The notes: a model not told the origin generated them from the sequence alone. Counted from the first letter of the stretch, positions 1 to 58,825 are shown. The stretch is 64,000 nucleotides of DNA from Trypanosoma brucei (GCA_000002445.1 CM000207.1:640001-704000); one strand, 5' to 3'. Numbers and translations: made by a program.

Positions 1-1615
1 CCTCAGATTGAGAACTCCTTTCTCGACAGTGTGGGATTCAATAGCCCGAGCACTGCGTGCACCCCGACTCGGAGCGGCAGGGAAACGATCATGCAGGGAA
101 TCGAGCACCGCCACATTTTCCCTCATTTTTTTGGAAGAATGCGGTGGGGTCACGACGGCAAGTAACCAACATGATCACAGGCGTGACGGGTGGAGAGAGC
201 GGGGAAGATGCGGTTGAGTTGGCTCAGCTGATCATCGTTAGGGGTGTAGTTTGCAAGAGGGGAGTGGAATGTTACCTGAAATGGGAAGCCGTCGATTAAA
301 CATTCAGTGAAGTCATAAGAAAAGCCGGACCTTCTGGACTACCCTATGCATAATGAGTTGGATGCTGCCAAGTGTTAGTGTAACAAAGTGGGGAAGACTT
401 ACCGCAAAAGGAAAGCTTGGTGTGGATCGTTTTCGGGGTTGCAAGCACGGCCCTATCCCTCGAGTGGGCTGAGGGAAGATGCGCCGTGCGAAGAGAAAAA
501 TAGAGGTGTCCGTTGCCATCCACCACCAAACCTGAACAGAAGGTTCTGCTGAATTGGATATGCCGAGCGGTGGAGAAACTTTCATATTTGATAAGGCAGA
601 AAGACGGCTGAGTTACGCAGAAGGATCGGTAAGCTGCCACGTGACTTCCGAGGGGGGAGGGCTGCAATGAAGATTGTGCTTGAAAGGCCTCTAAGAGAAA
701 CGGCATACAAGGCAAAGGGTGGGGTCCGGGTTAGAGACGTTCAACAAATTCGAACCGTCCCTCTTTTCTTTAAAGGCGGAACCAACACGTATAAAAGGTT
801 ACGTCCTTCGCCCTATATGGAGAAGGGATCGGTGCAGCTCGTTAGGAATATGCCCCTATAAGTGCATTATGTTTTCTATTGCTCTAATTTTTATTGAAAC
901 TAATTACCCGGCTACGGGGGCGGGTCTACAACCGGAACACCCTCCGTGCGGCACTAATACCGTGATATAGTTGTCGATTCAAAAGGCATCAGCGGTGAAT
1001 ACTTCAATTTTAACGCAGCAGTTTGAGGGCCGTCACGCACGGTATCAACGCTTTCTCTCATACCCCTTCTGCTAGGAAAGATATGGAAGCGGCGCGGAGA
1101 CAAGAGAAATTTCCCGCTTGGTTTTTCTTCTGGCGCAACGAAACGGTTCGGATGATATCTAGGATGGCTGAGCAACTGCATCAACCGAATGAGAGACGCG
1201 GTTGGTGCAGAATAGAGCAAATAATGAGGAGTCGCCGCCCCCTACACACACACACACATAATGTGAAGTTTAGTCGGAACAGCTCATACCTCGCGTGGTG
1301 GATAAACGTTTGGCGCCCAGTGATACGCCCGGGCAGTGATGCGGTATCGTTCCAGCGATTAACGTGGGTTGCTCATGCGACGGGGAAAAAAATCTGTAGA
1401 AAGGGTTGGACAAGGAACGAGTTGGAAAAACGCCTCAGAACGCGATGGGAATGTCGGGGATTGTGCATATCCTTTGTATGCGCGTGACTGTCCAGGACGC
1501 CCAAACACCCGAGAGTGCGCGCCATCAAACACAGAGGGGCGCTGCTATCCGAAACGAGCGACACCCAATGCGTGCACGTGTGGTTGTGTGGGAGAGCGCG
1601 GGGGGGGGGGGGGGG
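1..1615. repeat. Copy A of a >=1.6 kb interspersed/inverted repeat (reverse-complement partner at 49746..51353); truncated by the window edge
   Basis: ORF translations from 8..217, 344..715, 719..970, 954..1220, 1023..1487 and 1369..1680 recur almost residue-for-residue on the opposite strand at 51137..51445, 50639..51010, 50384..50635, 50134..50400, 49869..50331 and 49586..49987. Window pos 1-24 (cctcagattgagaactcctttctc) is the reverse complement of 51330..51353. Similarity ends at an 18-nt G-run (1598..1615). Many stop codons, no convincing ORF. Confidence 0.85.
1244..1258. repeat. (CA)n microsatellite inside repeat copy A (mirrored as (GT)n near 50099..50112 in copy B)
   Basis: acacacacacacaca seen directly. 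Confidence 0.8.
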
Positions 1616-2271
1616 AGTGGTGGGCTCGATGGCTGAAAGATACGGCTAATACGATGGTGCCCGATGTCTGCGGTGTCTGAAAACGCGTTTTATAGCAGTC
1701 CAACCAGGGGTGTGTATGGCGCACAAGGATTGAGGAGGAGAGTCAGCAGTAGGAACGCAATCGCAGGTAATGGCAGGAGGGGGTGCGTGTGTGTTGGGGG
1801 GGGGGGGGCAGTGCGGTGGTGATGTATTGCCGAGGTCGGTGCATTTTATGCCGGTGCTGGCAGTTGTTAGTGAATAAGAACGCTGGGACATAGTTCTGTG
1901 GGCCTTATTCGGTAGGGTACAGTCTTTTTTTCTTGTTGTCATGCCTATGTGTGGGGAAGTGGGGATGCGGGTCAGCACCGTGGTTTATGTGACTCTTGTT
2001 GCTGTGCCCTCGCTCGTTGATGCATTTCACCATCAGCTTTACAGATGTGTGCGCTTCTTACGTTAATGGATGCTGACGTCGGCATTTTTTTTTTTGATGC
2101 TATTGATGGGTTTGGTAAAGTGTTACCTGGAGATTGTAGAAACTTGCGGGCGGTCAGGTGTAATTTTTTTAAATCGGTCCCTTCCATGTGAAATGACTAA
2201 GTGTTGTGTTCACTACTGGCAAGGTATGATTTCCTGGACTCAACTTTAACGTTTAGAATGGTTTGTCATTT

Positions 2272-2330
2272 TTTTCCTCGTTTTTTTGTACAACTGCCTC
2301 TGATTATTGTTGTGAGTTTTTCTTCAATTA
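2272..2330 (+). promoter_or_regulatory. Polypyrimidine-rich tract upstream of the PPX1 ATG; candidate trans-splicing signal
   Basis: T/C-rich run (ttttttcctcgtttttttgtacaactgcctctgattattgttgtgagtttttcttc) followed by AG dinucleotides, 40-100 nt upstream of ATG 2371. Kinetoplastid trans-splice acceptor architecture is established knowledge; exact site not determinable by eye. Confidence 0.4.
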
Positions 2331-2370
2331 TATTTTGTCCTACGCTTTGGGCACTTTCCGGCCTTAAGAT

Positions 2371-3522
2371 ATGACGGCAGTGGTGAATGAGTTCCTTAAG
2401 CGCGGTGTACGAGCGTTAGCAGCTCGCCAGGATTCCGTTCTTGTGATGGGTAACGAAGGAGGTGACATGGACACCGTGATTGGCTCTATATTTCTGGCGA
2501 TGTACCTGGAAAAGCGTGACGTATTTGGTGTTGGTAGTTACGTTCCTGTACTAAACTTCGAAAAGGATGACTTACCACTGCGACAAGATGTGGTTAAGTT
2601 ACTGTCACGACACAACGTTTCTACAGACAGTATTTACTCAGTCAAGCAAAGTGGGAATGGTGTGGATTTCCTGGACCTACATCAAATGAAGCTTCCCATC
2701 GTTTTGTATGATCACAACAAGCTAAGTCCTGAGCAGGTTTATTTGGGAGAAAGGATCGTGGGTGTGGTCGACCATCACGAAGATGAGCAACTATACGTGG
2801 ATCAGACCAAATGCCTCCGAAGGATTTGCAAGACGGGTTCGGCTTGCACCCTTGTTGCAGAACTTTTCAACGAGGCGGGGTTGGAGGTTCCGTGCCCTGA
2901 GCTCCTCTTAGCCCCAATTGTAGTAGATACTGTAAACTTTGAACCGTCGCAAAAGAGGGTAACTGAACGAGACATTTTGGCCTCCAGGCTGCTGGTTGGG
3001 CGGGACGATTGCGGCGACTACCTGACGGGCATGTTTAAAGAACTAATGGCGTGGAAAAATGATATCCACTGCCTCACTGTTCCTCAGCACCTACGGCGGG
3101 ACTATAAAAACTTTGAATTTCCCTTTATTAGTGCTGAAAACAAGATATTGCGAGTTGGAATAAGCAGTATTTCGTGTCGTTCTGACGAATTACTATCCGT
3201 CCATGGTGTGAGTAGTGTGTCATCAAATTGCATTGAATTCATCAAACAGAGGTCAATCGACATGCTTCTCTTGACCTTCGCTGGTGAAAGAACTCCAGGG
3301 AGTTACTGTCGTCAGTTAGGTGTTGTTGCGAAGGATGAGGGACTCGCGGCTCTGCAAGCCTATTGTAAGAAATCACCCAGCGGGCTCGACTTTACTCTTC
3401 TGGAGGATGTAACAGTTAATGAGTGGGCCTTTTCAATTTACGAGCTGAGCGACCCTTCCGTGTCTCGGAAAAAGTTGGTTCCATCGCTGACTAGTTTTTT
3501 GTCAGTGTGGAACAATTTGTAA
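2371..3522 (+). CDS. PPX1: Exopolyphosphatase / DHH-family phosphoesterase (prune-like), 383 aa
   Basis: ATG at 2371. DHH-family motifs: NEGGDMDTVIGS (motif I/II Asp) and GVVDHHEDEQ (DHH motif III); 383 aa, the same size as characterised trypanosome PPX1. Confidence 0.85.
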   Translation: MTAVVNEFLKRGVRALAARQDSVLVMGNEGGDMDTVIGSIFLAMYLEKRDVFGVGSYVPVLNFEKDDLPLRQDVVKLLSRHNVSTDSIYSVKQSGNGVDFLDLHQMKLPIVLYDHNKLSPEQVYLGERIVGVVDHHEDEQLYVDQTKCLRRICKTGSACTLVAELFNEAGLEVPCPELLLAPIVVDTVNFEPSQKRVTERDILASRLLVGRDDCGDYLTGMFKELMAWKNDIHCLTVPQHLRRDYKNFEFPFISAENKILRVGISSISCRSDELLSVHGVSSVSSNCIEFIKQRSIDMLLLTFAGERTPGSYCRQLGVVAKDEGLAALQAYCKKSPSGLDFTLLEDVTVNEWAFSIYELSDPSVSRKKLVPSLTSFLSVWNNL

Positions 3523-5345
3523 AGATAAAAGAAAAAGAAAAATGGACCATTTTGTTATGTTGATCTGTCTTGTTGTGACCGGCACTATTACTTTAAGGCT
3601 AAACTCCATGTGAGAATGTCCGTAATAACACAACTTCGCACTGTCCTTTCGTTGTATTTGTTGGTGATGGGAACTTGCTTGCACTGGTCGTACCAATGAT
3701 GTTGCCTACTGTTGTTTTCTATATAAACTGTTGGTGACTGCGTCTACTGTTGCGCCATCGAAGGGAAAGATAGAGTAGCACCATGACGTCTAGGTCTTTT
3801 TAGTTATGATTTGCGGTCGCCCCGACTGGTGTACCTGCCACGATTCCATAACTCCTGACCCCTCCTCCTGAACAGCCTGAGCTTATCGATTTGCTTCGCG
3901 GGGGGCATGCTGCTGTGCTACCAGCCAGTTACACTAAGTATTGAAAATAAACATCGAGGCGTCTTTTTCTGGGGAACTTTGGAGTGCGGGGTTTCAATTT
4001 TACTGGAGTGTCGCAAAACTAGTAACGAGTCTGGTTGAGTGCTCCGACTTTAACCTTTGCCATGTAAGGAAAGGTACGTAGGTCCGCAGCCTCACAAGCA
4101 GTGATTTTAATAAACTCTTCGAACTTCTTTACCTCGCACGAGATTGTAGCTGCTGATACGTCACACTTGTTTTGCTGATCATGCGAAATACTCAGGTTTG
4201 TTGTTGGTGGACACTCTTCCTTTGCCCTAGCTTCCATGAAAGGTGCATGAATACTAAGAAAAATAGTGAAGACGGAGATATGTTGTACGAATGGGTGTGC
4301 CGTCTTTGTTAGATGTGGTTCAAACCACAACGTCATATACGCGTATACTTGGGAACCAAAAAGTGGCGTTGAAGTTGAGTGTCTTTTTTGCCTGTTGTAA
4401 TGAAACTGGAACAGATTTCTCTCTTCAGTGATGTTACTTTGTTAATGCACTTTCTGTGTTGGCCCGACAGTGTCGACAGAATGCACAACCAGAAGGAAAA
4501 AGAGTTAGAGGCTCTAACCGAGATGTTGGCGGCATGAAGAATGATGGTAAAATTGATTTCCCCCTTTGAACTGGAAGAACATCTTGTCAGTGCATCAGTT
4601 CCTGGGGGGGGGGGTGCCTTATTCTTTGTTGTTAATATTGTTTGGCCACACAGATAACAGTTGAATTCAACTGCTGATTGATGCTAACTATGTCAAAATC
4701 TACATTGTTGCTTATATGCGCGTGTCTGCGAAAGCAGATTGTTATCGGTTCGATTGGCTACATATGCATGCCCGCATTTCAGAACTGAATGTCTGTTCGA
4801 GATCCCGTTGCCGCACAGAATCTGGCGTGAAAACACAAGGGGATGCATTCAAGGGATCACACTTGCGATGGGGGAGTGCAATAATTCACACCCGGAAATC
4901 GGGAAGGAATTAGTTCTCACGCTCCCTTTTATTTTGTATTCCTTTGGGAGTGCTGAGGTGCATGTGACGTGCTGCCACTTGAGTTATTTCCACGTTGAAG
5001 ACGAAGGCTGAAATGGCCGCTCGTTAAAGTGTCGTTCCAAGGATACTAATGAAATTCATCAATATTCCAGTTGAACGATACATTGGCAGGTTGTTATATG
5101 CTCCGTTTAACGGCAATCCTTACTGAGTGGCCGCGGTTGGCTCATCACGGCTATTTTCCTTTTAGTTTCATCATAAGCATTCAGTAGAAAGTTACTATTA
5201 TTCTTGATATTTTGGTGGTTGTGATGTGGAGTTAAAAGGCTTTATGCAACTCTTCTTGTTACATCGCTGTTGCTGCTATGTGTGCAGTTTTTTCTTCCAG
5301 TAGGCTGAAGGCGGTACCCATATTTTTGCTGAACCAAATTTACAA

Positions 5346-5516
5346 ATGTCGCGCGGCAACCAACGGGAACTTGCTCGCGAAAAGAACTTGAAAAAGAAGG
5401 AGAAGACAAAGGGGCAACGGGACGACGGATTAACTTTCGCCCAACGAAAAGAAGCTGATGCCGAGCGGATGCGCAGAAAGCAAGCGGAGGCTGATGCGCG
5501 GAAGACTGGTTGTTGA
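5346..5516 (+). CDS. SERF/4F5-family small EDRK-rich protein, 56 aa (below the 60-aa ORF-track cutoff)
   Basis: Hand translation from ATG 5346: MSRGNQRELAREKNLKKKEKTKGQRDDGLTFAQRKEADAERMRRKQAEADARKTGC, stop at 5514-5516. N-terminus matches the SERF consensus M(T/S)RGNQR(E/D)LAR(Q/E)KN(L/M)KK. Confidence 0.65.
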   Translation: MSRGNQRELAREKNLKKKEKTKGQRDDGLTFAQRKEADAERMRRKQAEADARKTGC

Positions 5517-5943
5517 ATATGATTTGTTGCGCGGGGCTTCCCATAGGACCCATGAAACTTGTCGACCTATTTGCTAGATACCTGATGGTTTCCCTGTTTT
5601 CTGCCAGAACACAACATTCGTTGAGCCTTCAGTTGAACACCCAATGGTTTCCGGACTGCATGCCAAATACAAGAAACTGGGGGTTGCGGTATGCCGTGTC
5701 TCCCCTTTTTAAATATGAGTAATGAAGGACACGACTTGCATTAATAAAGGACACACTATCCTCCACGATTCTGAGAAGAGCAGTTCAAAAGGAGGGATTA
5801 ACCACAGGACCGCAGATGTTACTTGTTCCTCAATTTTTCAAATAACGTTCAACACTACTCGGCTAGTTGTTTTGCTATTCATTTTCTCCCCCCAATGATC
5901 TTTCATTTTTTCCATCTGGCATTACCTTCTGCGAGTGCAGATT

Positions 5944-6450
5944 ATGTCGTACTACGACAAGTCTGACAAAATAGGCTATGACGACACTGACAAAGAGCTT
6001 AACGAAGAGCTGGAGGAGATGCTCGCTCGAACACCCCCTCATATTCAACGACATTTGCAACATCGTATTCACGATGGCATACTGCAGCGTATGAAAGAGG
6101 ATACCGCGCGAAGGTGCTGGGAGTTCATCAAAAAGTATGAAACATGTGTCAATAGCGTCAAGCCATATGACTTAACGGACTGCCGTCCCCATAGGGACGC
6201 CCTCAATGATTGTGCCCACGAGGTGAACCGCGAACAAATCTATCAAAAGTATCGTATGATGTATCTCCGAGGTGAACTTCTCAGATTACATGAGAGCCGC
6301 CTTGGTCAAAAAATGGAGACCATGAAGGTCCGTGCACCCGATTCGATTAGGGGATGGAAGCCGGACTATGCACCGAAGTATGCGGAAATGATGTCAGATA
6401 TTGGACTAAATTTGGGGCCGGAGGCGGCGGACGAGCGAAAGCTCAGCTAA
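5944..6450 (+). CDS. Twin Cx9C (CHCH-domain) protein, probable mitochondrial intermembrane-space protein, 168 aa
   Basis: Track ORF starts at GTG 5935; first ATG is 5944. CWEFIKKYETC and CRPHRDALNDC each have exactly 9 residues between cysteines (twin Cx9C). Confidence 0.6.
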   Translation: MSYYDKSDKIGYDDTDKELNEELEEMLARTPPHIQRHLQHRIHDGILQRMKEDTARRCWEFIKKYETCVNSVKPYDLTDCRPHRDALNDCAHEVNREQIYQKYRMMYLRGELLRLHESRLGQKMETMKVRAPDSIRGWKPDYAPKYAEMMSDIGLNLGPEAADERKLS

Positions 6451-6614
6451 CAGGTGAAAAAGTGCGCTTCGCTTTCAAAGAAAAAACTTTTTTCCGGAGG
6501 AGTGGAGGGGTGACCGGCCTGCTGTCGGTTTCTATTTCTGTAACCAGGATTCCTTTTCTTTTTTTAAAAAAAAACACGACCTTCCACCATTGTGTTTGTA
6601 TTATAGAAGACTAC

Positions 6615-7835
6615 ATGTTGCATGCCGTTCGCCTACTCTCATGTTGGCGTCCCGCTGCCATTCAACACTTGCCCGACGTTGCCCCCCACGCACCGGTTCA
6701 GGAGGTCGAAAAGTCGCATGCTCGATATCGGCCGCTCTCTCTGAGGGCTAGACAGACTCTTTCGGAAAAATCTGATGACCTTCAGTATCACGTCGTGACT
6801 CAGGAATGGTTTGGGGAACGTGTTGACAGCTTTCTTACATGCCATTATCCCCAGTGGGACTACGAAACTATCAAAAGATTGGTGCAGCAGGGACACATAT
6901 ATAGGTATAGGAAGAACGGGAAAAAGAAATTTACTCGTCTCACAGACAGATTGGAGTTCGATGAACTGCTTGTCGTACCAACACGAGCCTTCTGGGAGAA
7001 GCAACTTGCTCCCCCCAGTGGTGTCCTAGAGGAGACTGACGGGCCGAAGTTTAAGTTGTCAGCTACTGCACGAGAAATGGCTCATAATATGGTGCTATTT
7101 AAAAACGAGCATGTTATAGTAATAAACAAGCCCCATGGTTTACCTATGATGCCGACAGACGACCCTCAGGAGATGAGTATAGCTGCGATGTTGCCAGCCT
7201 GGAAATTCACGAACGTTGCGAAGCCAGTTGTTTGTCATAACCTAGACAGGGAAACTAGTGGGTGCGTTGTGCTAGCTAGGACAAGAAATGCACATCGTAT
7301 GCTGGGTCGAATGTTTGTGAAGCGGGTGGTACCCAATAGTGTGTACTGGAGTTTCTGCGTTGGTAAACCAACGGTTAATTATGGTAGGGTGCGTATGCAC
7401 TTTGACATAACCAGGGGGAATAAAGGCGATATTATCGTTGCAAGGCCTTCGCCGACCAAGACGTCCAAAGTGGCTATCGCTGAGTTTGTTGTCAATGCAA
7501 GCGCCCTAGAGTTTGGTAGCTTTATTTCCTTTTATCCGCTAACAACCCGTCGCCACCAGGAACGAATTATGGCAGCACATGCCCTGCGCTGTCCGGTGTT
7601 GGGGGATGCTAAGTATGGAGGCGACGCGGCCTTTCCATCGTCGCTGTCGCTTTTTTGGGATCCTGAAAACAAGGGTTTGCCACTTCATCTACATCATCGC
7701 AAAATTCAATTACCCTACAAAAATACGGCGGGGGAGTTTATTTGTGTCACTGCCCCTCTTCCCACCCAAATGGAGAAGACATTTAAAAAACTTGGATGGC
7801 CATGTGAAGTGGACGACCCGCTGATACCGGGCTGA
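6615..7835 (+). CDS. RluA-family pseudouridine synthase, ~406 aa
   Basis: Track ORF 6354..7835 overlaps the upstream gene; first in-frame ATG after its stop is 6615 (MLHAVRLL...). Catalytic motif HNLDRETSGCVVLART (RluA HRLD...SG signature) plus a downstream KYGG-type region. Confidence 0.8.
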   Translation: MLHAVRLLSCWRPAAIQHLPDVAPHAPVQEVEKSHARYRPLSLRARQTLSEKSDDLQYHVVTQEWFGERVDSFLTCHYPQWDYETIKRLVQQGHIYRYRKNGKKKFTRLTDRLEFDELLVVPTRAFWEKQLAPPSGVLEETDGPKFKLSATAREMAHNMVLFKNEHVIVINKPHGLPMMPTDDPQEMSIAAMLPAWKFTNVAKPVVCHNLDRETSGCVVLARTRNAHRMLGRMFVKRVVPNSVYWSFCVGKPTVNYGRVRMHFDITRGNKGDIIVARPSPTKTSKVAIAEFVVNASALEFGSFISFYPLTTRRHQERIMAAHALRCPVLGDAKYGGDAAFPSSLSLFWDPENKGLPLHLHHRKIQLPYKNTAGEFICVTAPLPTQMEKTFKKLGWPCEVDDPLIPG

Positions 7836-8182
7836 TATCAATGAATCCCAACGCGCACCCTGTCATGAGGTAGCTTTGTCGTGTGTCTCTTCTAGTTTCT
7901 CTCCGGGTGTTGCTTGCGGGAGCGAGTGCCTCGCGTCGACCGGTTGTAAGACTAGGGTCGATGGACGGTACACGTTGGTGAAAGAACTGAACGGGTGTTG
8001 TTTGACCTTTGCTTTCCTCGCTCTTCCTCCGTCGCTGTTTATATACTTACTCGCTGCTAGAATGAAGATTTTCTTTTCGTGTTTTCACTTCTTTACTCCT
8101 TTTTGCGATGGGTCCACATGCTATATCTAAAAGCATCGGTTAAAATCTGATAGCGTGGGAACAAGTCATTGGCGTGCATGGA

Positions 8183-10215: not shown

Positions 10216-10231
10216 GTGTGTGTGTGTGTGT
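10216..10231. repeat. (GT)8 microsatellite, intergenic
   Basis: gtgtgtgtgtgtgtgt seen directly. Confidence 0.8.
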
Positions 10232-41946: not shown

Positions 41947-42481
41947 CACAGAAGCAGTGGGGGAGGGAAGAAAGGCAAACAAGAGAGGAACAGAAAATAA
42001 GAAAATACAGATATATTTATTTACTACTAGAGTCACAGCATGTCTCCCATGACCGTTTCTGCAGGAACTTAACTAAACTTGTGAGGGTCGACATTTGCCT
42101 GGAGGATGTGTGAGCGTTACGTTGCTTTGTTAGATTCACTCAACTTCTTTGCTTGGTGCAGTGTTGTTTTTTTTTGTACATCACTTCCTGCCTCTTCCGT
42201 TTCGCTCACAGAGGGAAACAAAAATAAGCATCGGCTCAGGTATAGTTGAGTATACCCTCGCGCATTCCCCTCTATTCTTTCTAACTGATCACTTCGCTAT
42301 TTTCCGTTTGAACGGCGTGCCGCGGCTTCCTCTTGACCTCTCCCTTTTTTGTCATCTCCCCCTTTTTTTGCGCGTGAGTGATTTGTTGACCGTGGTTTTT
42401 CCAACGGGGTGAGGGGAGGGAAATAATAAAGACGCCTTAGTGGTAAGGTAACAATAATTGTCGTGGTGGTATCATCGGCAA

Positions 42482-44077
42482 ATGCTTCGCATCAGCACCC
42501 CACGATTAGATGGCCCCATGGTAACGGGAGGCCCAGTTAAGGGTTTACAGGGTCGCATGCGTAGCCTAATTAAACCTAGCGTAGCGGAGCATGTTTTGCG
42601 GGACGTAGCGGTGGTACGTCAGCGTTTCGCAGAGTTGACAGACGCAGGCGTGGAGGATCCGGCTTCCACATACAAACCGTCGATTCCGCGTCCGTGGGTG
42701 AAGGCGCCTCTTTCTCGACTTTCCACCTCCGTTTCGAGGAGAGATTGGTTCCGCATCATGCAGTTCAACATCATGGCAGACGCTTGGAGTAACGGAGGCA
42801 CTACAGTGGAGAGAACGACGCCTGTACACGGTGTCCTGCCGTGGGTCCCCGGTTTCACGCGACGCGGAACGGACCCTTGTGGGTTCTACCCGTACGACCA
42901 TAGTGTGGATGAGGAGGTCCCGCCTTTTTTGCAAGAGGACATTAGGCGGGCCTACATTGTGAATGAGATTTGCTATTATGATCCCGATATTGTTTGCTTA
43001 CAGGAGGTCAACAGATCTTTTTTTAACGAAACCTTTTCTAAATACATTCGGTATCGTGGTTACGGCACGTTGTATCAATCAAGTCGCGGATATAAGGTGC
43101 GGGCCCTGCGTAGAGGCGATGACCCAACGCTGCTGCGCCACAAAGGAAAAATCGAAGAGAGGGAGGACATTGGAAATGTGATCCTTTTCCACAAGGGACG
43201 CTTCGTACCCATTTTGATGCCGGGTAAAGATCTTGTGCAGCATTTACACTTTGCTCACATTGTTGCCATGCGGGATAGGGTCACCAACATGACACTGAAT
43301 GTAGCATGCGCACAGTTTACCGCTGGAGATTCCGCTGAGGCATCGGAGATACGCCTGCACGAAGCAAGGCAGACAATGCAGATACTCGATGCTCTGAACC
43401 GAAACGACACAGATCGCTCACATATGAGTAATGTTATATGTGGGGACTTTAACAACGTTGAGGACGAAGAGCCGTGCGTGCAGTTTATGAGGGAGCGTTT
43501 GTTTTCCACATACGACGTGGTGGGCGGCCCGCGGTGGACCACCTGGTTTCATGAAGATGCCCAAAGTAATGCTCGGTATCAAAAGTATTATTCCTGCAAC
43601 CGTGCTGGATACTTCGCCACTAATGCAGCAAAGCGAGCTGAGCAGGAAGTAGCGAAGTTTACGTGGTTACGAAGTGGTGGTCTCAATGGTCGACGCCAAG
43701 ATGTCAGCGGCGGCGATTCCGCTCCACCCGGGACACGCAGTGCAACAATCTCATCACTCGATAAAGTGGTTGGTGCTAACGAACCTAACACTGCGGCGCG
43801 CACACTCGAGCGGGGTGGCACATGTGGAGATGTGTTGGTTGAACAAAAGCAGGCCCTGAAAGCAGATGGTATTATTAGGCGCACTCAAGACTTTGTGCTG
43901 TACGACCCCAAAACACTCGCACTTCACCAGGTTTTAGACGTTCCGGAGGATGAGCACATCGATAGTCAGCAGCTGCTTCCGTGCAGTGGCCATCCTTCGC
44001 ATCACCTTCATCTAGTCGTTGATGTCTCCTTCACAGATGTTTGCCCCGACGTGGGGGAAATATCTATAAAGGATTGA
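42482..44077 (+). CDS. Endonuclease/exonuclease/phosphatase (EEP) family protein, nocturnin/CCR4/PDE12-like, 531 aa
   Basis: First ATG 42482 (track start is TTG). EEP motifs: FRIMQFNIMADAW (N-terminal Asn), DIVCLQEVN (Glu), ICGDFNN (Asp/Asn), C-terminal HPSHHLHLVVDVSF (cf. nocturnin PSDHLSLVCDFSF). Confidence 0.75.
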   Translation: MLRISTPRLDGPMVTGGPVKGLQGRMRSLIKPSVAEHVLRDVAVVRQRFAELTDAGVEDPASTYKPSIPRPWVKAPLSRLSTSVSRRDWFRIMQFNIMADAWSNGGTTVERTTPVHGVLPWVPGFTRRGTDPCGFYPYDHSVDEEVPPFLQEDIRRAYIVNEICYYDPDIVCLQEVNRSFFNETFSKYIRYRGYGTLYQSSRGYKVRALRRGDDPTLLRHKGKIEEREDIGNVILFHKGRFVPILMPGKDLVQHLHFAHIVAMRDRVTNMTLNVACAQFTAGDSAEASEIRLHEARQTMQILDALNRNDTDRSHMSNVICGDFNNVEDEEPCVQFMRERLFSTYDVVGGPRWTTWFHEDAQSNARYQKYYSCNRAGYFATNAAKRAEQEVAKFTWLRSGGLNGRRQDVSGGDSAPPGTRSATISSLDKVVGANEPNTAARTLERGGTCGDVLVEQKQALKADGIIRRTQDFVLYDPKTLALHQVLDVPEDEHIDSQQLLPCSGHPSHHLHLVVDVSFTDVCPDVGEISIKD

Positions 44078-44499
44078 CGAAGCGAAGAAGGCAATGAGTC
44101 GTTGTTGAAGTTAGTGGAATGGAGGGGGCAGCTGCAGATGGAAGTGATAACGAAAAGCGTTCGCATGCCATAAGTCAGTTACATATGCATCAGTTTCAGT
44201 GCGGGGCTCGGGGGGGGCCACATTCACTGTTCATTTCGTTTTCATTACTGGTACTACCCACTCTCTTGGTGAAAAACGTTTCTCGTCCATACACCACCGA
44301 CGGTGGACAAAAATAAGACTGTCCTTTTACTCGCTACAACCCTTTTCACATCTTTAAGTGACCTAGGATAGGTACAAAGTGACCTAACAGCATAGTGATA
44401 ATTCAATTTGTGTTTGCTGTTGGAGGAAAAAAAAAATTTAAAGTGGAAAGGGGAAGGCACAGGCAAGGCAAGGCAAGCCTGAGGAGCTGCTGTCGAACA

Positions 44500-47400
44500 A
44501 TGGCCCAGTGCTTTGGAAGTGATTATGTACTCGGCAAGGCGAAACCCTCAGATGGGGAACGATGGAACCTTCTCGAGCGCGTATATGCAGACTATGAGGA
44601 GATGAATGCTCAGCAGCAGGAGATTGCAGCGCGCAAGCGTGAGCTGGATATGGAGTTCTATGACGGCAACATTGAAAAGATTGAAGAGGCGCTTCACTTC
44701 AACGAGAATCGCCGTGGCTCTCGTGAAGGGGACTGGGACACGTACGAAAAGGTGGAGCATATCGTCAAGAAGTTTGTGTACTGTCGTGCTGGAAGGGTGT
44801 TCAAAGCTAGTGAAGTCCAGGAAGTCTTGGAGGAGCGCATCCGCCTATTGGGCGATATTGAAGCTTCACAGAAGCAGCGCATCACTGCCTTGGAAACAAC
44901 GCTTAGCTCAGTTCAGAGCGAGTTGGCTGAGGTAACGCGACTTCTGTGCATGAGTGAGGCCCGAGCTAAGGCCCTCAAGGCGGAATGTGTGGCAAATACC
45001 ATGAAAGCTAGGCAGCTGCAGCGCGTGTGCGACGGCCTTAGAGGCAGTGGGAAAAAAGACGAGAGCGAGGTGTTCAGAGACATGCGCCTCCTCATTGAGG
45101 CAAACAGACAAATGGAGAAGGATTGCCAGAAACTACGCGTCGCGTTGAACATGGGCCCTGTGAGCGCGAAGAAACAGAAGACTGTGAAAGCAGCGCAAAG
45201 AGTCCGCGCGCGGCCTGTGGTCGCCCACTCGATGTCGAATTCTCGCAACGGAAGCATGGTGGAAACACTCCTAACTCACACGGAAAAGGTGGGGGAGTTG
45301 AAGTCAGAAGAAACTCTAGAGGCAAACATTGAATCTAAGGCGGATGTGGTAACTGATGCTTCACAGAAGCAAACCAAGACTCTTCCTCAGCTCACGGCAC
45401 TCACGGGAGATGCAGAGAAAAGTGTGTCAGCTGCCCAGTCCGCGGTGCGCGCAGACGACGGTGCCCCTGCTTCCGTGGAAAATAGTCTTGTTGTTTGCGG
45501 TGGTAATGGTCTTTGTGAAGTTTCGCTGGAAGGGAAGCCTGGCGACGAGACGCTTAAATTCATGTCTCAACCTAACATAACCGGGAGTTTTCCAGATCTT
45601 GATCAGTCGCAGCGGGATGTTTCCGTTTCCAGAACTATGAGCAGTAAGGCGATTTATAAACTTGAGCGTATTCAAGAGAGAGCGAGCACGTTGGCGGAGG
45701 AGGTACCTTTGTCTGATGCCCTCATGCGTGCGTTCATCAAATGTGAAAAGTTGCAGGAGCTAATGGAGTGGGAAGTTGGCAGGAGCATGGCAATGCTTGA
45801 CTATGATGCAAATGTGTCCCACAAGCACGTAAGTTTCCACAGTGCGTGTGTGGGTGCCAGCAAAAAATTCTCACAGGACGCTTCTTGTGGGGAAGAGAGG
45901 GATATGTCCATGGTTTTTAGTGGGAGAGAAGTTGCCGGAATGCCCGGAGAGTCCCTGAACACCTCCAATTCACACCTAAGCCCGGCTGCTGGCGCTTCCA
46001 GGACCGCCGTGTTGCAAGGCTCCGGAGTCTCTCCAATGAGCACCTTGATTGGTAACCAGACTTCCTTCTTTACTACTACGCAGGATGCTACGCGCACGCT
46101 TACCTCCCTGTCAGGTGATTTGGGGCACCCATTGCACTCTCTTATGGGGCAAGTTTTGCCTAATGGTCTGCTAACCGCGTCTCAGAATAGTGGGTATACG
46201 GAGATGTCCTCCGCTGCGGCGAGAGAACTAGCTGAAACGGGCGGCGGAAACGTTGACTTCAACGACCCTGGAATGCCAATACAAGGAATGGAAACTTCTT
46301 ACAAGAACGGGCTGTTGCCCCACCACGCTGCGGTTGTGTTGTCGACTCGTAAGAATTTAGCTGTTGAAGATGTCGGCGGTTTGTCCACCCGCATCAGGAC
46401 GGCAGCATTGAGTGGAAGTGATGTGAGCGGTGCGAGCGAAGGTGGGTGGAATCAGGTGGGAAGCCGCGAGGGATCTGAATGCTCCCAACTCGTGTATTCT
46501 TCTGAAGATGGTGATTCGGACAGCGAAACTCACCACCTCGGTCGCTGGGTGGATTCCCCCTCACAATTAAGTGATGAAGCTCCCTTCGAGGGAGTGGGAG
46601 TCGAAAACGCTAACACCAGGGCTAAAAAGTATTCAGCACGGGGAAGCGATAGGTCCAATATCTCTTTTGCGGGCTCCCGGAGAAGTGCCCACCGCAGCGC
46701 AGCTAGCCGCCTGACGAGTGCTGCTACCAAAGGGCGAACCCGTAATTCAACAGTCAGCTTGGCAACAGAGCAACGACTAAGCGCGAGGACCAAGAGGAGG
46801 GCTGCGAGGGGCGGGGTGAAGGTTAACAGTGCGTTTCGGGCCCTGAGTAAGGAGGTGTCCACGCTACGAGATGCATGCCATAATATGATCAACGAAATGA
46901 ACGAGATGTTTGACGTAATGGGGAAATGTGTTGATGCCCTCGAAAAGCACTCGGGCACTGGCCAGCAAGTGGCGGCAACCCGCACAAAGCAGGCCTTATC
47001 AGCTGTTGTCAAGGAGGTAGTGAAGGGGGTGGCGGAGCAAGAGGTGTTGGACCGTCTCGGGAAACAAGGCATTGTTTTGGAGCGTCACCCAGAGTCTCCT
47101 AACTTAACTGATGAGCAGTGGATGCAGAATCGGCTGTACGATGCCATTATGAAATCAACAAGTGAACACGTTGACAGGGCCCTCGTGCAAAAGGGTGAAC
47201 GCCCAAGCAAATCCCTTTGCGGTAGTCGTAGGTCATCCCTATCGGCACTCGACCAGAAGCAAGAAGGGCAGGAACGGCAACGGGAACGGGAACGGCAACG
47301 TTGGCAGAAACAAGAAGAACAGTGTCAAGGACAGGACCGCTTGTGGAAACAGGGACGAGAGCAATGGCAAAGAGAAGGGAGAGGAGGTGGAGGAGGACAG

Positions 47401-48600
47401 TGGTGGGAACGAGAAGAACACATGCACGCATCCGAGCCCGAGAATGTACAAAGGCGGTTAGCTGACTTGGGAAAAAGAAGGACTCCACGCCAGTCGGGCA
47501 CTAACCAGGGCGATTCGCACTTCTTCTCCTACCCATTTAGGGGCGATAATGAGTTGGAGGATGGATCGTACACTCTTTGGCCATCTGATCCCACTCCGCC
47601 CACAGGTGTGGACACGGGGGTGTGGGAAGAGCCACTGGAAGCAATGCGTCGAGAAATGTGGAGACTCGCTGGCCACCCCTGCGTGGACTCTGGCGATGGA
47701 AACACAGAGCAGAATCCTCGGCCACTTCATGCGCATATGAGCAAAGGGGGTGGTGGGGGTTGGAGGGAGAGGTTTTCAAGCTGGACGGTTGCTGGTGATG
47801 CGATGTTTTGTGCCCCACTTGCCGAGGAGGGTGATAGGAAGTACCAACCCCCTGTGCCGTACAAGACCGGCCCAGGATTCTTGGTTCCGCGCTTAAGGTT
47901 AGGATGTGCGAGGCTCGGGGCCACGCACGGCGCGGTAAGGAGCAACTCCTGTGAGGAGATTTTGGAGTATCTAAGACGGCTTCAGCCACCGGAGTACTCC
48001 AGGGACCTCGCGTGTCTGACACCCAGAGTCTTCAGATACGATTTTGGAAGCACAGTTTCTGACGCTAGACGGAACGTGCGGGAGGGCGTCTCTCAGGTCA
48101 AACACCATCTGCAAAGTGCGTTGTTTAATCAGGGGTTCTCCAGCGAAATACTACCGTACGCAACTGCTGCGAGGCGCTTGCAGCATGGGGGAGCCCTGCC
48201 CACGTGGATGCGTGAGGCGGTGGTGATGCTCCGAAGGGAGGAAAAGGACCGAAACCAAAAGATGGCCAAACTTATCTTCCAGAAGGTGGCAACAAATATC
48301 CGTACAAGAAGTATATTGAAGCGCGTGTGTCGGGGATCTGCTTTCGCCGCCTATCTGGTTGTTATGTGGGAGAAATGGATGGGAGGGTGGGAGAAACGCT
48401 GCGAGGCGTTACGGCATACACAGAAGGAAAGTTTGGGGCGCGTTATGGACATGGTGGTGAATGGTTTTAATGTAGTGCCACAGCAGCTCCGCGGGCCACT
48501 TGAGACACAGGAGTCTCCGTGGGTAGACGCGAGGAGGACACTCAAAGGCGCGAGCAGCTACCACTTCAGAGATGCACGGATCCCCTCGAAGGACAAATGA
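44500..48600 (+). CDS. Large hypothetical coiled-coil protein with Gln/Arg/Glu/Trp-rich low-complexity segment, ~1366 aa
   Basis: Track ORF starts at GTG 44395; first ATG 44500 (MAQCFGSDYVLGKAK). N-terminal coiled coil; low-complexity QERQRERERQRWQKQEEQCQGQDRLWKQGREQWQREGRGGGGGQWWEREEH near 47270..47420. Confidence 0.55.
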   Translation: MAQCFGSDYVLGKAKPSDGERWNLLERVYADYEEMNAQQQEIAARKRELDMEFYDGNIEKIEEALHFNENRRGSREGDWDTYEKVEHIVKKFVYCRAGRVFKASEVQEVLEERIRLLGDIEASQKQRITALETTLSSVQSELAEVTRLLCMSEARAKALKAECVANTMKARQLQRVCDGLRGSGKKDESEVFRDMRLLIEANRQMEKDCQKLRVALNMGPVSAKKQKTVKAAQRVRARPVVAHSMSNSRNGSMVETLLTHTEKVGELKSEETLEANIESKADVVTDASQKQTKTLPQLTALTGDAEKSVSAAQSAVRADDGAPASVENSLVVCGGNGLCEVSLEGKPGDETLKFMSQPNITGSFPDLDQSQRDVSVSRTMSSKAIYKLERIQERASTLAEEVPLSDALMRAFIKCEKLQELMEWEVGRSMAMLDYDANVSHKHVSFHSACVGASKKFSQDASCGEERDMSMVFSGREVAGMPGESLNTSNSHLSPAAGASRTAVLQGSGVSPMSTLIGNQTSFFTTTQDATRTLTSLSGDLGHPLHSLMGQVLPNGLLTASQNSGYTEMSSAAARELAETGGGNVDFNDPGMPIQGMETSYKNGLLPHHAAVVLSTRKNLAVEDVGGLSTRIRTAALSGSDVSGASEGGWNQVGSREGSECSQLVYSSEDGDSDSETHHLGRWVDSPSQLSDEAPFEGVGVENANTRAKKYSARGSDRSNISFAGSRRSAHRSAASRLTSAATKGRTRNSTVSLATEQRLSARTKRRAARGGVKVNSAFRALSKEVSTLRDACHNMINEMNEMFDVMGKCVDALEKHSGTGQQVAATRTKQALSAVVKEVVKGVAEQEVLDRLGKQGIVLERHPESPNLTDEQWMQNRLYDAIMKSTSEHVDRALVQKGERPSKSLCGSRRSSLSALDQKQEGQERQRERERQRWQKQEEQCQGQDRLWKQGREQWQREGRGGGGGQWWEREEHMHASEPENVQRRLADLGKRRTPRQSGTNQGDSHFFSYPFRGDNELEDGSYTLWPSDPTPPTGVDTGVWEEPLEAMRREMWRLAGHPCVDSGDGNTEQNPRPLHAHMSKGGGGGWRERFSSWTVAGDAMFCAPLAEEGDRKYQPPVPYKTGPGFLVPRLRLGCARLGATHGAVRSNSCEEILEYLRRLQPPEYSRDLACLTPRVFRYDFGSTVSDARRNVREGVSQVKHHLQSALFNQGFSSEILPYATAARRLQHGGALPTWMREAVVMLRREEKDRNQKMAKLIFQKVATNIRTRSILKRVCRGSAFAAYLVVMWEKWMGGWEKRCEALRHTQKESLGRVMDMVVNGFNVVPQQLRGPLETQESPWVDARRTLKGASSYHFRDARIPSKDK

Positions 48601-49745
48601 CGTGATTTGATGTGTACGCGTTTGCGGTGTGGACCTCAATCATGCGTCAGCAAACGTGCCCCGCCGGCGTTGGCAATATGTATTGGCTGCAACCCTCAGG
48701 TAGCATTCGCCAACTCACTCACCAACGTGAGTGTGCTTGTTTTTGTGTAACAAAAAGAGTATGTACATTTAGTTGAAGTTAGTAAACAGGAAGGGTGTGC
48801 GCGGAGTCTCATAGTGTAATTAGTAGTATGGCACACAAAAGCACTTTGGAAACGTGTGGGCGACGCACCCGTGTAAACAAGAAGTAACCGATTGCGGTTC
48901 CATGCGATGGCGGTAGGGTCGATATCATTATCAATACTATTTTTGTTTTTCGTTGTAGCTACGTCTATTCCCAATTTTCTGCTTCCCACCTTGTTTCCTC
49001 GCTGGTTTCTTTGCGCTTTGTGGTAGAGGGGAAAAGCTTCTCCCGGAGAATGGTTTTGCCACCCTTCCGCTATACGCTCACCTTACTACTTCCAGTTTCT
49101 TACTGTTATTGTGTGCGCACGTGCTCGGTACCTTTGTCCCCTTTTCCCCTGTGTATCTATCTTTAATCGGTGCACAGTTACGCCATCCCATCTTGTGGAA
49201 TTCCCTCCCCTTTGAATTAAATGCAAGATGACAGTTAGCCTTCCATTGCTCTGCTTGGTGACTGCTGCCTTTTCATACGGTGGAAGAGCTTCACCGACGA
49301 ATGAAGTTTTTCACCCCTTGGACTTACCCCTGGCCTTGTTGAAGGACTGCCAAGCACGTCCGTACGCCGTCAGGGCGTCGTCTGAAGCAGATTGCGTTAC
49401 CCGATAACAGTGAAGCTCCTGATCAACAGGGCTGCTGTGCACGGAGGGGAATGGCTATGCCGGATGATGTGGCACCTGTGCTTTAGTGTGGTGGCACTGC
49501 TCTTGCAGTTTCTGGAGCTCAGCCACTTGCGAGTTAAGAGCCAATGTCGCTAAAAAGGGGCAGGTGACAGTAGGGTGGTCGACGCTCAACTTGTTGATGG
49601 TTGTAGGAAACCAAAAGGGTGGCTTTGGCGGCCTAATGGAAGTCCGAAACGCTTCGATGGGACCCGAGTGAAATACGCATTGACAAGCGTCCAAGTTAGT
49701 GGGGAAGCCAAAACCGTCAACGAGGACATTGCACCCAACCCACCC

Positions 49746-51353
49746 ACCCCCCCCCCGCGCTCTCCCACACAACCACACGTGCACGCATTGGGTGTCGCTC
49801 GTTTCGGATAGCAGCGCCCCTCTGTGTTTGATGGCGCGCGCTCTCGGGTGTTTGGGCGTCCTGGACAGTCACGCGCATACAAAGGATATGCACAATCCCC
49901 GACATTCCCATTGCGTTCTGAGGCGTTTTTCCAACTCGTTCCTTGTCCAACCCTTTCTACAGATTTTTTTCCCCGTCGCATGAGCAACCCACGTTAATCG
50001 TTGGAACGATACCGCATCACTGCCCGGGCGTATCACTGGGCGCCAAACGTTTATCCACCACGCGAGGTATGAGCTGTTCCGACTAAACTTCACATTATGT
50101 GTGTGTGTGTAGGGGGCGACGACTCCTCATGATTTGCTCTATTCTGCACCAACCGCGTCTCTCATTCGGTTGATGCAGTCGCTCAGCCATCCCAGATATC
50201 ATCCGAACCGTTTCGTTGCGCCAGAAGAAAAACCAAGCGGGAAATTTCTCTTGTCTCCGCGCCGCCTCCATATCTTTCCTAGCAGAAGGGGTATGAGAGA
50301 AAGCGTTGATACCGTGCGTGACGGCCCTCAAACTGCTGCGTTAAAATTGAAGTATTCACCGCTGATGCCTTTTGAATCGACAACTATATCACGGTATTAG
50401 TGCCGCACGGAGGGTGTTCCGGTTGTAGACCCGCCCCCGTAGCCGGGTAATTAGTTTCAATAAAAATTAGAGCAATAGAAAACATAATGCACTTATAGGG
50501 GCATATTCCTAACGAGCTGCACCGATCCCTTCTCCATATAGGGCGAAGGACGTTACCTTTTATACGTGTTGGTTCCGCCTTTAAAGAAAAGAGGGACGAT
50601 GCGAATTTGTTGAACGTCTCTAACCCGGACCCCACCCTTTGCCTTGTATGCCGTTTCTTTTAGAGGCCTTTCAAGCACAATCTTCATTGCAGCCCTCCCT
50701 CCTCGGAAGTCACGTGGCAGCTTACCGATCCTTCTGCGTAACTCAGCCGTCTTTCTGCCTTATCAAATATGAAAGTTTCTCCACCGCTCGGCATATCCAA
50801 TTCAGCAGAACCTTCTGTTCAGGTTTGGTGGTGGATGGCAACGGACACCTCTATTTTTCTCTTCGCACGGCGCATCTTCCCTCAGCCCACTCGAGGGATA
50901 GGGCCGTGCTTGCAACCCCGAAAACGATCCACACTAAGCTTTCCTTTTGCGGTAAGTCTTCCCCACTTTGTTACACTAACACTTGGCAGCATCCAATTCG
51001 TTATGCATAGGGTAGTCCAGAAGGTCCGGCTTTTCTTATGACTTCACTGAATGTTTAATCGACGGCTTCCCATTTCAGGTAACATTCCACTCCCCTCTTG
51101 CAAACTACACCCCTAACGATGATCAGCTGAGCCAACTCAACCGCATCTTCCCCGCTCTCTCCACCCGTCACGCCTGTGATCATGTTGGTTACTTGCCGTC
51201 GTGACCCCACCGCATTCTTCCAAAAAAATGAGGGAAAATGTGGCGGTGCTCGATTCCCTGCATGATCGTTTCCCTGCCGCTCCGAGTCGGGGTGTACGCA
51301 GTGCTCGGGCTATTGAATCCCACACTGTCGAGAAAGGAGTTCTCAATCTGAGG
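49746..51353. repeat. Copy B (reverse complement) of the >=1.6 kb repeat at 1..1615; probably continues beyond 51353
   Basis: See copy A. Inner boundary at a C-run (49760..49769), complementary to the G-run ending copy A. Positions 51330..51353 are the reverse complement of window 1..24, so the repeat is only as long as the window allows on the left. Confidence 0.85.
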
Positions 51354-58809: not shown

Positions 58810-58825
58810 TTATTCTATTTTTCGA

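What the first reader, a model, noticed from the sequence alone, without database searches (positions are those of the whole stretch)
1..51353. Near-identical >=1.6 kb inverted repeats bracketing a 48-kb housekeeping gene block
Copies at 1..1615 and 49746..51353 are reverse complements with only about 15-20 substitutions seen by eye in translated comparisons (~98-99%). They are non-coding, with stops in all frames, and each ends internally at a homopolymer (G18 at 1598..1615; C10 at 49760..49769). Copy A runs off the window, so the repeat may be much longer. Such inverted repeats could drive inversion of the intervening 48 kb (33 genes) by homologous recombination. That would flip transcription polarity of the whole block relative to the chromosome.
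Basis: seen in the sequence. Interest (0 to 1): 0.5.

Follow-up and report, generated by a model that had tools for sequence, protein, structure and literature searches.

The report
Inverted 1.6-kb repeat, trypanosome chromosome 9
Two nearly identical 1.6-kb non-coding segments in opposite orientation really do bracket a 48-kb gene block on Trypanosoma brucei chromosome 9 and exchange sequence by gene conversion, but this is a known kind of low-copy intergenic repeat and no flipped version of the block was found.

Summary
Arm A (1-1615) and arm B (49747-51353) are reverse complements, with 17 substitutions and one 2-bp CA indel (~98.9% identity). Their inner ends lie at a G16/C10 run.

The window is Trypanosoma brucei chromosome 9, not a bacterium. 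The first gene of the block is the exopolyphosphatase TbrPPX1 (Tb09.160.1950), and every gene with a Pfam hit lies on the + strand, as in one polycistronic unit.

- **Position.** In relatives, arm A sits in the divergent strand-switch region heading that unit. Arm B lies 48 kb downstream, 1.4 kb from a degenerate ingi-like reverse transcriptase (DIRE).
- **Content.** The arms show no protein-family, Rfam or tRNA match. The one arm ORF tracked across genomes is annotated at only two loci in T. b. gambiense.
- **Length.** In T. b. gambiense and T. equiperdum IVM-t1 the left arm ends within about 50 nt of the window start, so the repeat is not much longer there.
- **Exchange.** Eight substitutions that separate genomes or lineages appear in both arms of the genomes carrying them. 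This indicates inter-arm gene conversion.
- **Inversion.** All three usable assemblies show the same block orientation. The one inverted-looking junction (T. equiperdum OVI) crosses an N gap.

Such intergenic repeats have been catalogued in T. brucei, so interest is low to moderate.

The parts
1..1615 (.). Arm A of the inverted repeat. Non-coding and G-rich on the + strand. In related genomes it lies in the divergent strand-switch region upstream of the first gene of the + strand polycistronic unit.
   Evidence: alignment; GC skew +0.21; left flank in T. b. gambiense and IVM-t1 is unrelated DNA, then minus-strand genes
1600..1615 (+). G16 homopolymer that forms the inner boundary of arm A. Its length varies between strains and between arms.
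1245..1258 (.). (CA)7 microsatellite inside arm A. Its partner is (TG)6 at 50098-50109. This is the only indel between the arms, and its length differs in every genome compared.
1616..49746 (+). 48-kb block of about 30 genes; every gene with a Pfam hit is on the + strand. It includes TbrPPX1, a pseudouridine synthase, a GNAT acetyltransferase, thioredoxin, enkurin, a PPPDE-PUB-GH85 protein, cyclophilin, an Smr-domain protein, a GT11 fucosyltransferase, a kinesin and an EEP nuclease.
2371..3522 (+). TbrPPX1 exopolyphosphatase (Tb09.160.1950), the first gene after arm A. It anchors the window to T. brucei chromosome 9.
   Evidence: PMC3022644
49747..51353 (.). Arm B, the reverse complement of arm A. 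It lies between the last gene of the block (44395-48600) and the degenerate retroelement.
49747..49756 (+). C10 homopolymer that forms the inner boundary of arm B.
52338..54555 (+). Degenerate ingi/L1Tc-type reverse-transcriptase remnant (DIRE-like). It contains a 519-aa ORF at 52776-54335 with an RVT_1 domain. Its RT-homologous remnant starts about 1 kb (RT core 1.4 kb) to the right of arm B. It is not part of the repeat in T. b. gambiense or IVM-t1.

Best explanation
This is a low-copy, non-coding, intrachromosomal inverted segmental duplication of about 1.61-1.66 kb on Trypanosoma brucei chromosome 9.

One copy (arm A) lies in the divergent strand-switch region immediately upstream of TbrPPX1, at the head of a polycistronic transcription unit. 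The other (arm B) lies 48 kb downstream in a gene-poor, retroelement-bearing gap, next to a degenerate ingi-like element.

The arms are not a mobile element, a gene or a known RNA. They stay about 99% alike because they occasionally repair from one another by non-crossover homologous recombination (gene conversion). That exchange spreads new substitutions from one arm to the other and shifts the repeat boundary. A crossover between them would invert the block. I infer that such products are rare or selected against, because they would turn about 30 genes antisense to RNA polymerase II transcription.

Shown: the repeat, its boundaries, its genomic setting, its conservation in three T. brucei-group genomes, its concerted evolution, and the constant orientation of the block. 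Inferred: the selective reason why inversions are absent, and that the arms have no function of their own.
For: - **Repeat and boundaries.**
- **Organism and locus.** Exact PPX1 match on T. b. gambiense chromosome FN554972.1 and in T. equiperdum. A kinetoplastid PH-like domain is present. PPX1 is Tb09.160.1950. The arm-B ORF is identical to TREU927 EAN76458.1.
- **One transcription unit.** All Pfam-supported genes are on the + strand.
- **Arm A in a divergent strand-switch region.** Unrelated DNA and then a minus-strand gene lie to its left in T. b. gambiense; the IVM-t1 left flank is 98% identical to that sequence.
- **Not a gene, RNA or retroelement.** There are no Rfam or tRNA hits, no Pfam hit in any frame of arm B, and no tandem repeats. 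Other copies of the reverse-transcriptase core on another chromosome lack the arms.
- **Two copies per genome.** The arm ORF cluster contains only TbgDal_IX1620 and IX1930 in T. b. gambiense.
- **Gene conversion.** Arm-to-arm substitution differences are 2 in T. b. gambiense, 6 in IVM-t1 and 16 in the window on the 7-sequence alignment (17 on the pairwise alignment). Orthologous arms of different genomes differ by 4-22. Five sites separate {gambiense, IVM-t1} from {window, OVI} in both arms. Two more are gambiense-specific and one IVM-specific, again in both arms. Arm B is 43 nt longer at its outer end in T. b. gambiense and IVM-t1.
- **Neutral rate.** The arms diverge 1.0-1.2% between the window and T. 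b. gambiense, inside the range of the flanking intergenic DNA (0.35-2.9%).
- **Same orientation in three assemblies.**
- **Both sites are old gene-poor, retroelement-bearing gaps.** In T. vivax an ingi-like element lies upstream of PPX, and another copy lies in a 9-kb gene-free gap upstream of the WD40 gene.
- **The kind is known.** Ubeda et al. report 773 intergenic direct or inverted repeats in T. brucei, with PCR-detectable rearrangements (PMC4028189).
Against: - The left flank of arm A in the window's own genome is not visible, because the window starts within 6 nt of the boundary. Its first 6 bases match arm B's flank rather than the T. b. gambiense flank. A longer repeat in this strain is therefore not excluded.
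- Homogenised arms could partly be assembly or polishing artefacts in T. b. gambiense and IVM-t1. However, the arms still differ at other sites in those same assemblies, and the boundary shift is anchored in unique sequence.
- Only assemblies were compared. Minority inversion isomers within populations cannot be seen this way.
- A function, such as a transcription start region or a small-RNA source, was not testable and is not excluded.
Confidence: 0.7

Rival explanations
1. Invertible block. Crossovers between the arms flip the 48-kb block, and both isomers exist in T. brucei populations.
For: The arms clearly recombine with each other. A T. equiperdum OVI scaffold reads rc(right flank with RT)-arm-[gap]-PPX, which is the junction expected of the inverted isomer. 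Ubeda et al. detected predicted rearrangements at selected T. brucei repeats by PCR.
Against: The OVI junction runs across a run of Ns at the poly-G tract. Its arm is of the arm-B type, and the 51,458-bp contig length is about what one arm plus the block would total, which suggests it ends at the other arm (end not read). A scaffolding mis-join through a collapsed repeat therefore explains it equally well. The window, T. b. gambiense (Sanger) and IVM-t1 (PacBio) all share one orientation. T. vivax also has PPX first after the gene-free gap. An inversion would put about 30 genes antisense to the flanking transcription (inference).
Confidence: 0.1
2. Small-RNA source. Arm B is read through by the + strand unit, giving RNA complementary to any + strand RNA from arm A. 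The two would form double-stranded RNA in trans that Dicer cuts into siRNAs, as at the seven known long inverted repeats of T. brucei.
For: All seven long inverted repeats found in TREU927 yield siRNAs (PMC3447711). That study also lists a chromosome-9 'DTU' (read here as 'divergent transcription unit'; the name is not expanded in the text read) and a 'TUD4' small-RNA locus, without coordinates or explanation. Arm B lies on the same strand as, and downstream of, a transcribed gene array.
Against: This pair is not among the seven repeats, whose loci span at most about 12 kb, whereas here the arms are 48 kb apart, so a fold-back transcript is unlikely. Whether arm A is transcribed at all is unknown. 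No small-RNA data could be examined.
Confidence: 0.2
3. Remnant of a longer inverted duplication that once included the retroelement. The original structure would be DIRE(-)-arm-PPX on the left, mirrored by arm-DIRE(+) on the right, with the left DIRE since lost in some lineages. Alternatively, the arm was carried along as flanking DNA of the element.
For: Arm B's outer end (51353) is about where the 5' end of an ingi-type element is expected, given that its reverse-transcriptase domain starts near 52,750-52,920. In T. vivax an ingi-like element lies on the minus strand upstream of PPX, the mirror image of arm B plus DIRE. The OVI scaffold and the first 6 bases of the window are compatible with a longer left arm in the TREU927/OVI lineage.
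Against: T. b. gambiense and IVM-t1 have no reverse-transcriptase remnant left of arm A. No residual homology is detectable beyond either boundary. The T. vivax element belongs to T. vivax's own multi-copy family and may be an independent insertion. No endonuclease domain or other homology is detectable in 51354-52338.
Confidence: 0.2
4. Duplicated RNA polymerase II start or boundary module. The arm would carry promoter activity directed towards the block, so arm B would fire antisense into the block's end, or the block would be expressed in either orientation.
For: In relatives, arm A lies 0.75-2.4 kb upstream of the first gene of the unit, where start sites are expected. It is strongly G-skewed on the sense strand and ends in a G-run. 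Both arms sit at gaps that are gene-free and retroelement-bearing in T. vivax too.
Against: G-runs occur in many intergenic regions of the window. The arms evolve at the neutral intergenic rate. No chromatin or nascent-RNA data could be examined, and no sequence motif could be tested.
Confidence: 0.1
5. Assembly artefact, in which one arm was wrongly duplicated or misplaced.
For: The window begins almost exactly at the repeat boundary, which suggests a contig break or gap there.
Against: Both arms, each with its own unique flanks, occur in three independently produced assemblies. The arms differ at 17 sites within the window.
Confidence: 0.02

Closest known systems
Low-copy intergenic repeated sequences ('repeat alignment groups') of Leishmania and T. 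brucei (Ubeda et al. 2014, PMC4028189; Laffitte et al. 2014, PMC4256157)
   Same: Non-coding, 200-2,500 bp, more than 85% identical, two copies on one chromosome in direct or inverted orientation, and used as substrates for homologous recombination. The authors report 773 such repeats in T. brucei and rearrangements detectable by PCR.
   Different: In Leishmania most derive from SIDER retroposons and give extrachromosomal amplicons under selection. Here no retroposon origin is detectable in the arms, no amplicon is known, and what is documented is gene conversion between the arms. I could not check whether this particular pair is in their list.
Long inverted repeats IR1-IR7 of T. brucei TREU927 that produce siRNAs (Tschudi et al. 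2012, PMC3447711)
   Same: Same organism. Arms range from 0.4 to 10 kb at 99-100% identity, and the authors call their maintenance a curiosity.
   Different: Those loci span at most about 12 kb in total, so they can fold back. None is on chromosome 9. Here the spacer is 48 kb and holds about 30 genes. Small-RNA output is untested.
DIRE (degenerate ingi/L1Tc-related elements) accumulated at strand-switch regions of trypanosomatids (PMC4035085, PMC4748587)
   Same: A DIRE-like reverse-transcriptase remnant lies 1.4 kb from arm B. Both arms lie in the kind of inter-unit region where such elements accumulate.
   Different: The arms themselves have no reverse-transcriptase, endonuclease or other coding similarity and no poly(A) tail. 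They are absent from other copies of the same reverse-transcriptase core.
Concerted evolution of large inverted repeats by gene conversion (for example chloroplast inverted repeats and human X/Y palindromes; from general knowledge)
   Same: Arms within a genome are more alike than orthologous arms between genomes, and the repeat boundary shifts over time.
   Different: This repeat is far smaller and sits in a nuclear polycistronic genome. No flip-flop isomers were seen.

Membership tests
Low-copy intrachromosomal intergenic repeats (Ubeda 2014 criteria) | Non-coding sequence repeated on the same chromosome, 200-2,500 bp, more than 85% identity | tested here: met
   1.61 kb, 98.9% identity, both arms in one window, no coding signal; criteria from PMC4028189
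Low-copy intrachromosomal intergenic repeats (Ubeda 2014 criteria) | Low copy number (usually a pair confined to one chromosome) | tested here: inconclusive
   The arm ORF cluster holds only two T. b. gambiense loci, IX1620 and IX1930, and there are no further copies in the roughly 190 kb of T. brucei-group loci fetched. A whole-genome DNA search was not possible.
Low-copy intrachromosomal intergenic repeats (Ubeda 2014 criteria) | Recombination between the copies is detectable | tested here: met
   Substitutions shared by both arms and a shifted boundary show gene conversion. The crossover or amplicon products those authors detect by PCR are not testable here.
siRNA-producing long inverted repeats of T. 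brucei (Tschudi 2012) | Two arms of at least 400 bp, inverted, 99-100% identical | tested here: met
   definition
siRNA-producing long inverted repeats of T. brucei (Tschudi 2012) | Arms close together (whole locus about 3.6-12 kb), allowing a fold-back transcript | tested here: not met
   48.1 kb lie between the arms. The published list has no chromosome 9 entry.
siRNA-producing long inverted repeats of T. brucei (Tschudi 2012) | 22-25 nt Argonaute-bound small RNAs of both polarities map to the arms | not testable with these tools
   No read data are available. The chromosome-9 'DTU' and 'TUD4' loci in the supplement carry no coordinates.
ingi/RIME/DIRE non-LTR retroposons | Coding remnants of endonuclease, reverse transcriptase or RNase H | tested here: not met
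   No Pfam hit in any of the six frames of arm B. tblastn with 32 ingi-clade proteins hits only 52338-54555 plus one weak minus-strand match at 51752-52078, none in the arms.
ingi/RIME/DIRE non-LTR retroposons | 3' poly(A) tail and flanking target-site duplication | tested here: not met
   The arm ends are ...CTCAGATTGAG (outer) and a poly-G run (inner). There is no A-tail and no duplicated flank.
ingi/RIME/DIRE non-LTR retroposons | 77-nt 5' hallmark (Pr77 / HDV-like ribozyme) | not tested
The Rfam E-value scan of 49000-56500 gave no ribozyme hit.
ingi/RIME/DIRE non-LTR retroposons | The unit travels with the element (found beside other copies) | tested here: not met
   Other copies of the reverse-transcriptase core, 93% identical and on another chromosome, share only 52755-54239.

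The most novel reading that the evidence does not exclude
The arms could be duplicated transcription-boundary modules. Each would drive or delimit RNA polymerase II transcription towards the block. The 48-kb head of the unit would then be a cassette that is expressed in either orientation, and the two arms would produce complementary RNAs that feed the nuclear Dicer and mark both boundaries. In that case selection, not just drift plus gene conversion, would maintain their near-identity.
Probability: 0.07. Interest if true: 0.6.

Novelty: new member of a known kind. Interest (0 to 1): 0.25.

Why it matters
Trypanosome genes are transcribed in long one-directional arrays, so a recombination-active inverted repeat that brackets the first 48 kb of an array could reverse the array's polarity. 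The data give a clean natural example of gene conversion acting across 48 kb of a core chromosome region in T. brucei, with no crossover product fixed. That is useful for thinking about the stability of transcription units, and as a caution for short-read scaffolding. It does not reveal a new kind of element: low-copy intergenic direct and inverted repeats have already been catalogued in this parasite and in Leishmania.

Tried and rejected
- **Structural RNA genes.** I looked for rRNA, tRNA and other RNA genes as the cause of a near-identical repeat. Rfam and ARAGORN found nothing.
- **Bacterial promoter and terminator scan.** I ran it before the organism was clear. It is irrelevant for a trypanosome.
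- **Arms as part of the neighbouring retroelement.** Six-frame Pfam scans and tblastn with 32 ingi-clade proteins found only the reverse-transcriptase core outside the arms. Other copies of that core lack the arms.
- **Extending the repeat leftwards in the window's own genome.** Exact look-ups of the arm ORFs and several neighbouring proteins were not on record. The left flank could be read only in T. b. gambiense and IVM-t1.
- **Diverged homology beyond the repeat boundaries**, which would indicate an older, larger duplication. None was found beyond chance.
- **The arm sequence in T. vivax.** None was detectable by nhmmer or sensitive blastn.
- **Tying the locus to published small-RNA loci.** The pseudogene Tb09.160.3400 is labelled 'GT_pseudogene' in the supplement, and nothing links it to the arms. 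The other chromosome-9 loci have no coordinates.
- **The OVI scaffold as evidence of inversion.** Rejected as reliable evidence because the junction is a run of Ns.


Full report
**Observation.** The repeat finder reports two abutting inverted pairs, 1-1256/50098-51353 (99%) and 1246-1625/49731-50110 (98%). They are split only because a CA microsatellite differs in length. A global alignment of arm A with the reverse complement of arm B shows 17 substitutions and one 2-bp indel over positions 1-1609, about 98.9% identity. Similarity collapses right after the homopolymer.

**Organism and setting.** The window is not bacterial.
- Its ORFs carry eukaryotic and kinetoplastid-specific domains, including kinesin, enkurin, PUB, cyclophilin and the kinetoplastid PH-like domain. 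All ORFs with Pfam support are on the + strand.
- The first gene (2371-3522) occurs with an identical protein on T. b. gambiense DAL972 chromosome FN554972.1 and in T. equiperdum.
- That gene is the exopolyphosphatase TbrPPX1, Tb09.160.1950, on chromosome 9 (PMC3022644).
- The ORF in arm B is identical to TREU927 protein EAN76458.1, annotated 'hypothetical protein, unlikely'. The window is therefore TREU927 or something very close to it.
- The 48 kb between the arms form the head of a polycistronic transcription unit of about 30 gene models. In T. b. gambiense the arm ORFs are TbgDal_IX1620 and IX1930.

**Where the arms sit.** In T. b. gambiense and in the PacBio assembly of T. equiperdum IVM-t1, the DNA left of arm A is unrelated to anything in the window. 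In T. b. gambiense about 4.7 kb of it precedes a gene on the minus strand, and the IVM-t1 flank is 98% identical to that sequence. Arm A therefore lies in a divergent strand-switch region, 0.75-2.4 kb upstream of the first gene.

Arm B lies between the last gene of the block (44395-48600) and a degenerate ingi-type reverse transcriptase. That element has a 519-aa ORF at 52776-54335 with an RVT_1 domain, and tblastn similarity spans 52338-54555. Its best non-orthologous relatives are 'Tbingi' and reverse-transcriptase proteins of other trypanosomes at 35-62% identity. This fits a DIRE rather than an active ingi.

**What the arms are not.**
- There is no Rfam or tRNA match and no tandem repeat.
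- There is no Pfam match in any of the six frames of arm B and its right flank, apart from the reverse transcriptase outside the arm.
- There is no poly(A) tail or target-site duplication.
- Copies of the reverse-transcriptase core on another T. equiperdum chromosome, 93% identical, share only 52755-54239 and not the arms.
- The arm's ORF cluster contains only two T. b. gambiense loci.

The arms are thus a two-copy, non-coding segmental duplication and not a dispersed element, as far as I could test without a whole-genome DNA search.

**Length.** In IVM-t1 the left arm ends within about 6 nt of window position 1. In T. b. gambiense the repeat (its two arms aligned to each other) runs about 45 nt beyond it. 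No residual similarity is detectable beyond either boundary. The window itself starts within 6 nt of the boundary, which suggests an assembly break there, so its own left flank is unseen. Its first six bases match arm B's flank rather than the T. b. gambiense flank. A longer repeat in this one strain therefore cannot be excluded, but nothing positive supports it.

**Recombination between the arms.** I aligned seven arms: A and B of the window, A and B of T. b. gambiense, A and B of IVM-t1, and the single arm of OVI.
- Within-genome differences are 2 (gambiense), 6 (IVM-t1) and 16 (window). Orthologous arms of different genomes differ by 4-22.
- Five sites (496, 576, 1070, 1394, 1543) separate {gambiense, IVM-t1} from {window, OVI} in both arms.
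- Sites 44 and 1191 are gambiense-specific in both arms, and site 1544 is IVM-specific in both arms.
- In T. b. gambiense and IVM-t1, arm B has also acquired 43 nt of arm A's outer flank.

A substitution can appear in both arms of one lineage only by transfer between them, so the arms undergo gene conversion across 48 kb.

One caveat is that consensus or polishing artefacts could exaggerate within-genome similarity. Against this, the same assemblies keep other arm-specific differences, and the boundary shift is anchored in unique sequence.

Between the window and T. b. gambiense the arms diverge 1.0-1.2%. This lies inside the range of the neighbouring intergenic DNA (0.35-2.9%), so nothing indicates purifying selection on them.

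**Inversion.** The window, T. b. gambiense and IVM-t1 all show the orientation arm A-PPX...last gene-arm B-DIRE at every junction that could be read; the window's own left flank is not visible.

A T. equiperdum OVI scaffold reads rc(DIRE flank)-arm-PPX, which is the junction an inverted isomer would have. However, the link crosses a run of Ns at the poly-G tract, and the arm is of the B type. The 51,458-bp contig length is also about what one arm plus the block would total, so it probably stops at the second arm (its end was not read). A scaffolding mis-join through a collapsed repeat explains it equally well.

In T. vivax, PPX is likewise the first gene after a gene-free gap and the block start is collinear. 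The present orientation is therefore ancestral.

**Wider context.** In T. vivax an ingi-like element lies on the minus strand upstream of PPX. A 1.84-kb copy of its 5' part, 90% identical and in direct orientation, lies in a 9-kb gene-free gap upstream of the WD40 (poly(A) export) gene. Both positions are thus old, gene-poor, retroelement-prone gaps, typical of transcription-unit boundaries.

Arm B's outer end is about where the 5' end of the neighbouring element is expected, so a historical link between the duplication and the element remains possible. T. b. gambiense and IVM-t1 show no element left of arm A.

**Comparison with what is known.**
- Tschudi et al. surveyed TREU927 and listed seven long inverted repeats, with arms of 0.4-10 kb at 99-100% identity and loci spanning at most about 12 kb. 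All produce siRNAs, and none is on chromosome 9. This pair matches the arm criteria but not the short spacing.
- Ubeda et al. reported 773 intergenic direct or inverted repeats (200-2,500 bp, more than 85% identity, same chromosome) in T. brucei, and detected predicted rearrangements by PCR. This pair meets those criteria.
- Degenerate ingi-related elements are known to accumulate at strand-switch regions.

**Verdict.** This is a real, conserved, recombination-active inverted duplication of non-coding boundary DNA, and a new member of a known kind. The inversion hypothesis is mechanistically sound but unsupported by the assemblies available. A role as a small-RNA source or a transcription boundary is untested. 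Interest is low to moderate.

Noticed in passing
window 55983-56351 and 58820-59188: A 369-nt direct repeat (about 99% identical; 300 nt by the gap-free tool) lies in the intergenic DNA on either side of a 165-aa ORF and the WD40/poly(A)-export gene. It is also present in T. b. gambiense and IVM-t1.
   Followed up: partly
window 52750-54240 (DIRE reverse-transcriptase core): The window and T. b. gambiense diverge 4.3% here, against about 1% in the DNA on both sides. This suggests ectopic gene conversion of this core by other copies (93% identical) elsewhere in the genome.
   Followed up: partly
L004/L005 (T. equiperdum IVM-t1 CM010677.1, 844,593-883,735): Another chromosome carries several copies of the same 1.49-kb reverse-transcriptase core. 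Two are spaced 9.9 kb apart in direct orientation and others are inverted, lying between blocks of unrelated genes. It looks like a larger repeat structure.
   Followed up: no
window 1-6: The window starts within 6 nt of the outer boundary of arm A. That is unlikely by chance and suggests a contig break or gap at the repeat edge in the source assembly.
   Followed up: partly
L010 6872-8703 and L021 2811-4643 (T. vivax SOPI01000070.1): T. vivax has a 1.84-kb, 90% identical direct repeat (the 5' part of an ingi-like element) at the two positions orthologous to the T. brucei arm sites. This parallels the T. brucei arrangement but with a different sequence and orientation.
   Followed up: partly
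L002 about 3235-3292 (T. equiperdum OVI CZPT02001311.1): A scaffold gap of Ns sits exactly at the poly-G tract and joins arm-B-type sequence to the start of the block. This is probably a mis-scaffold through the inverted repeat in a public assembly.
   Followed up: partly
window, whole: Runs of eight or more G are nine times on the + strand and only twice on the - strand (one of the two is arm B's C10). This fits the strand-specific composition of a one-directional transcription unit. GC skew turns negative only over 50-54 kb.
   Followed up: no
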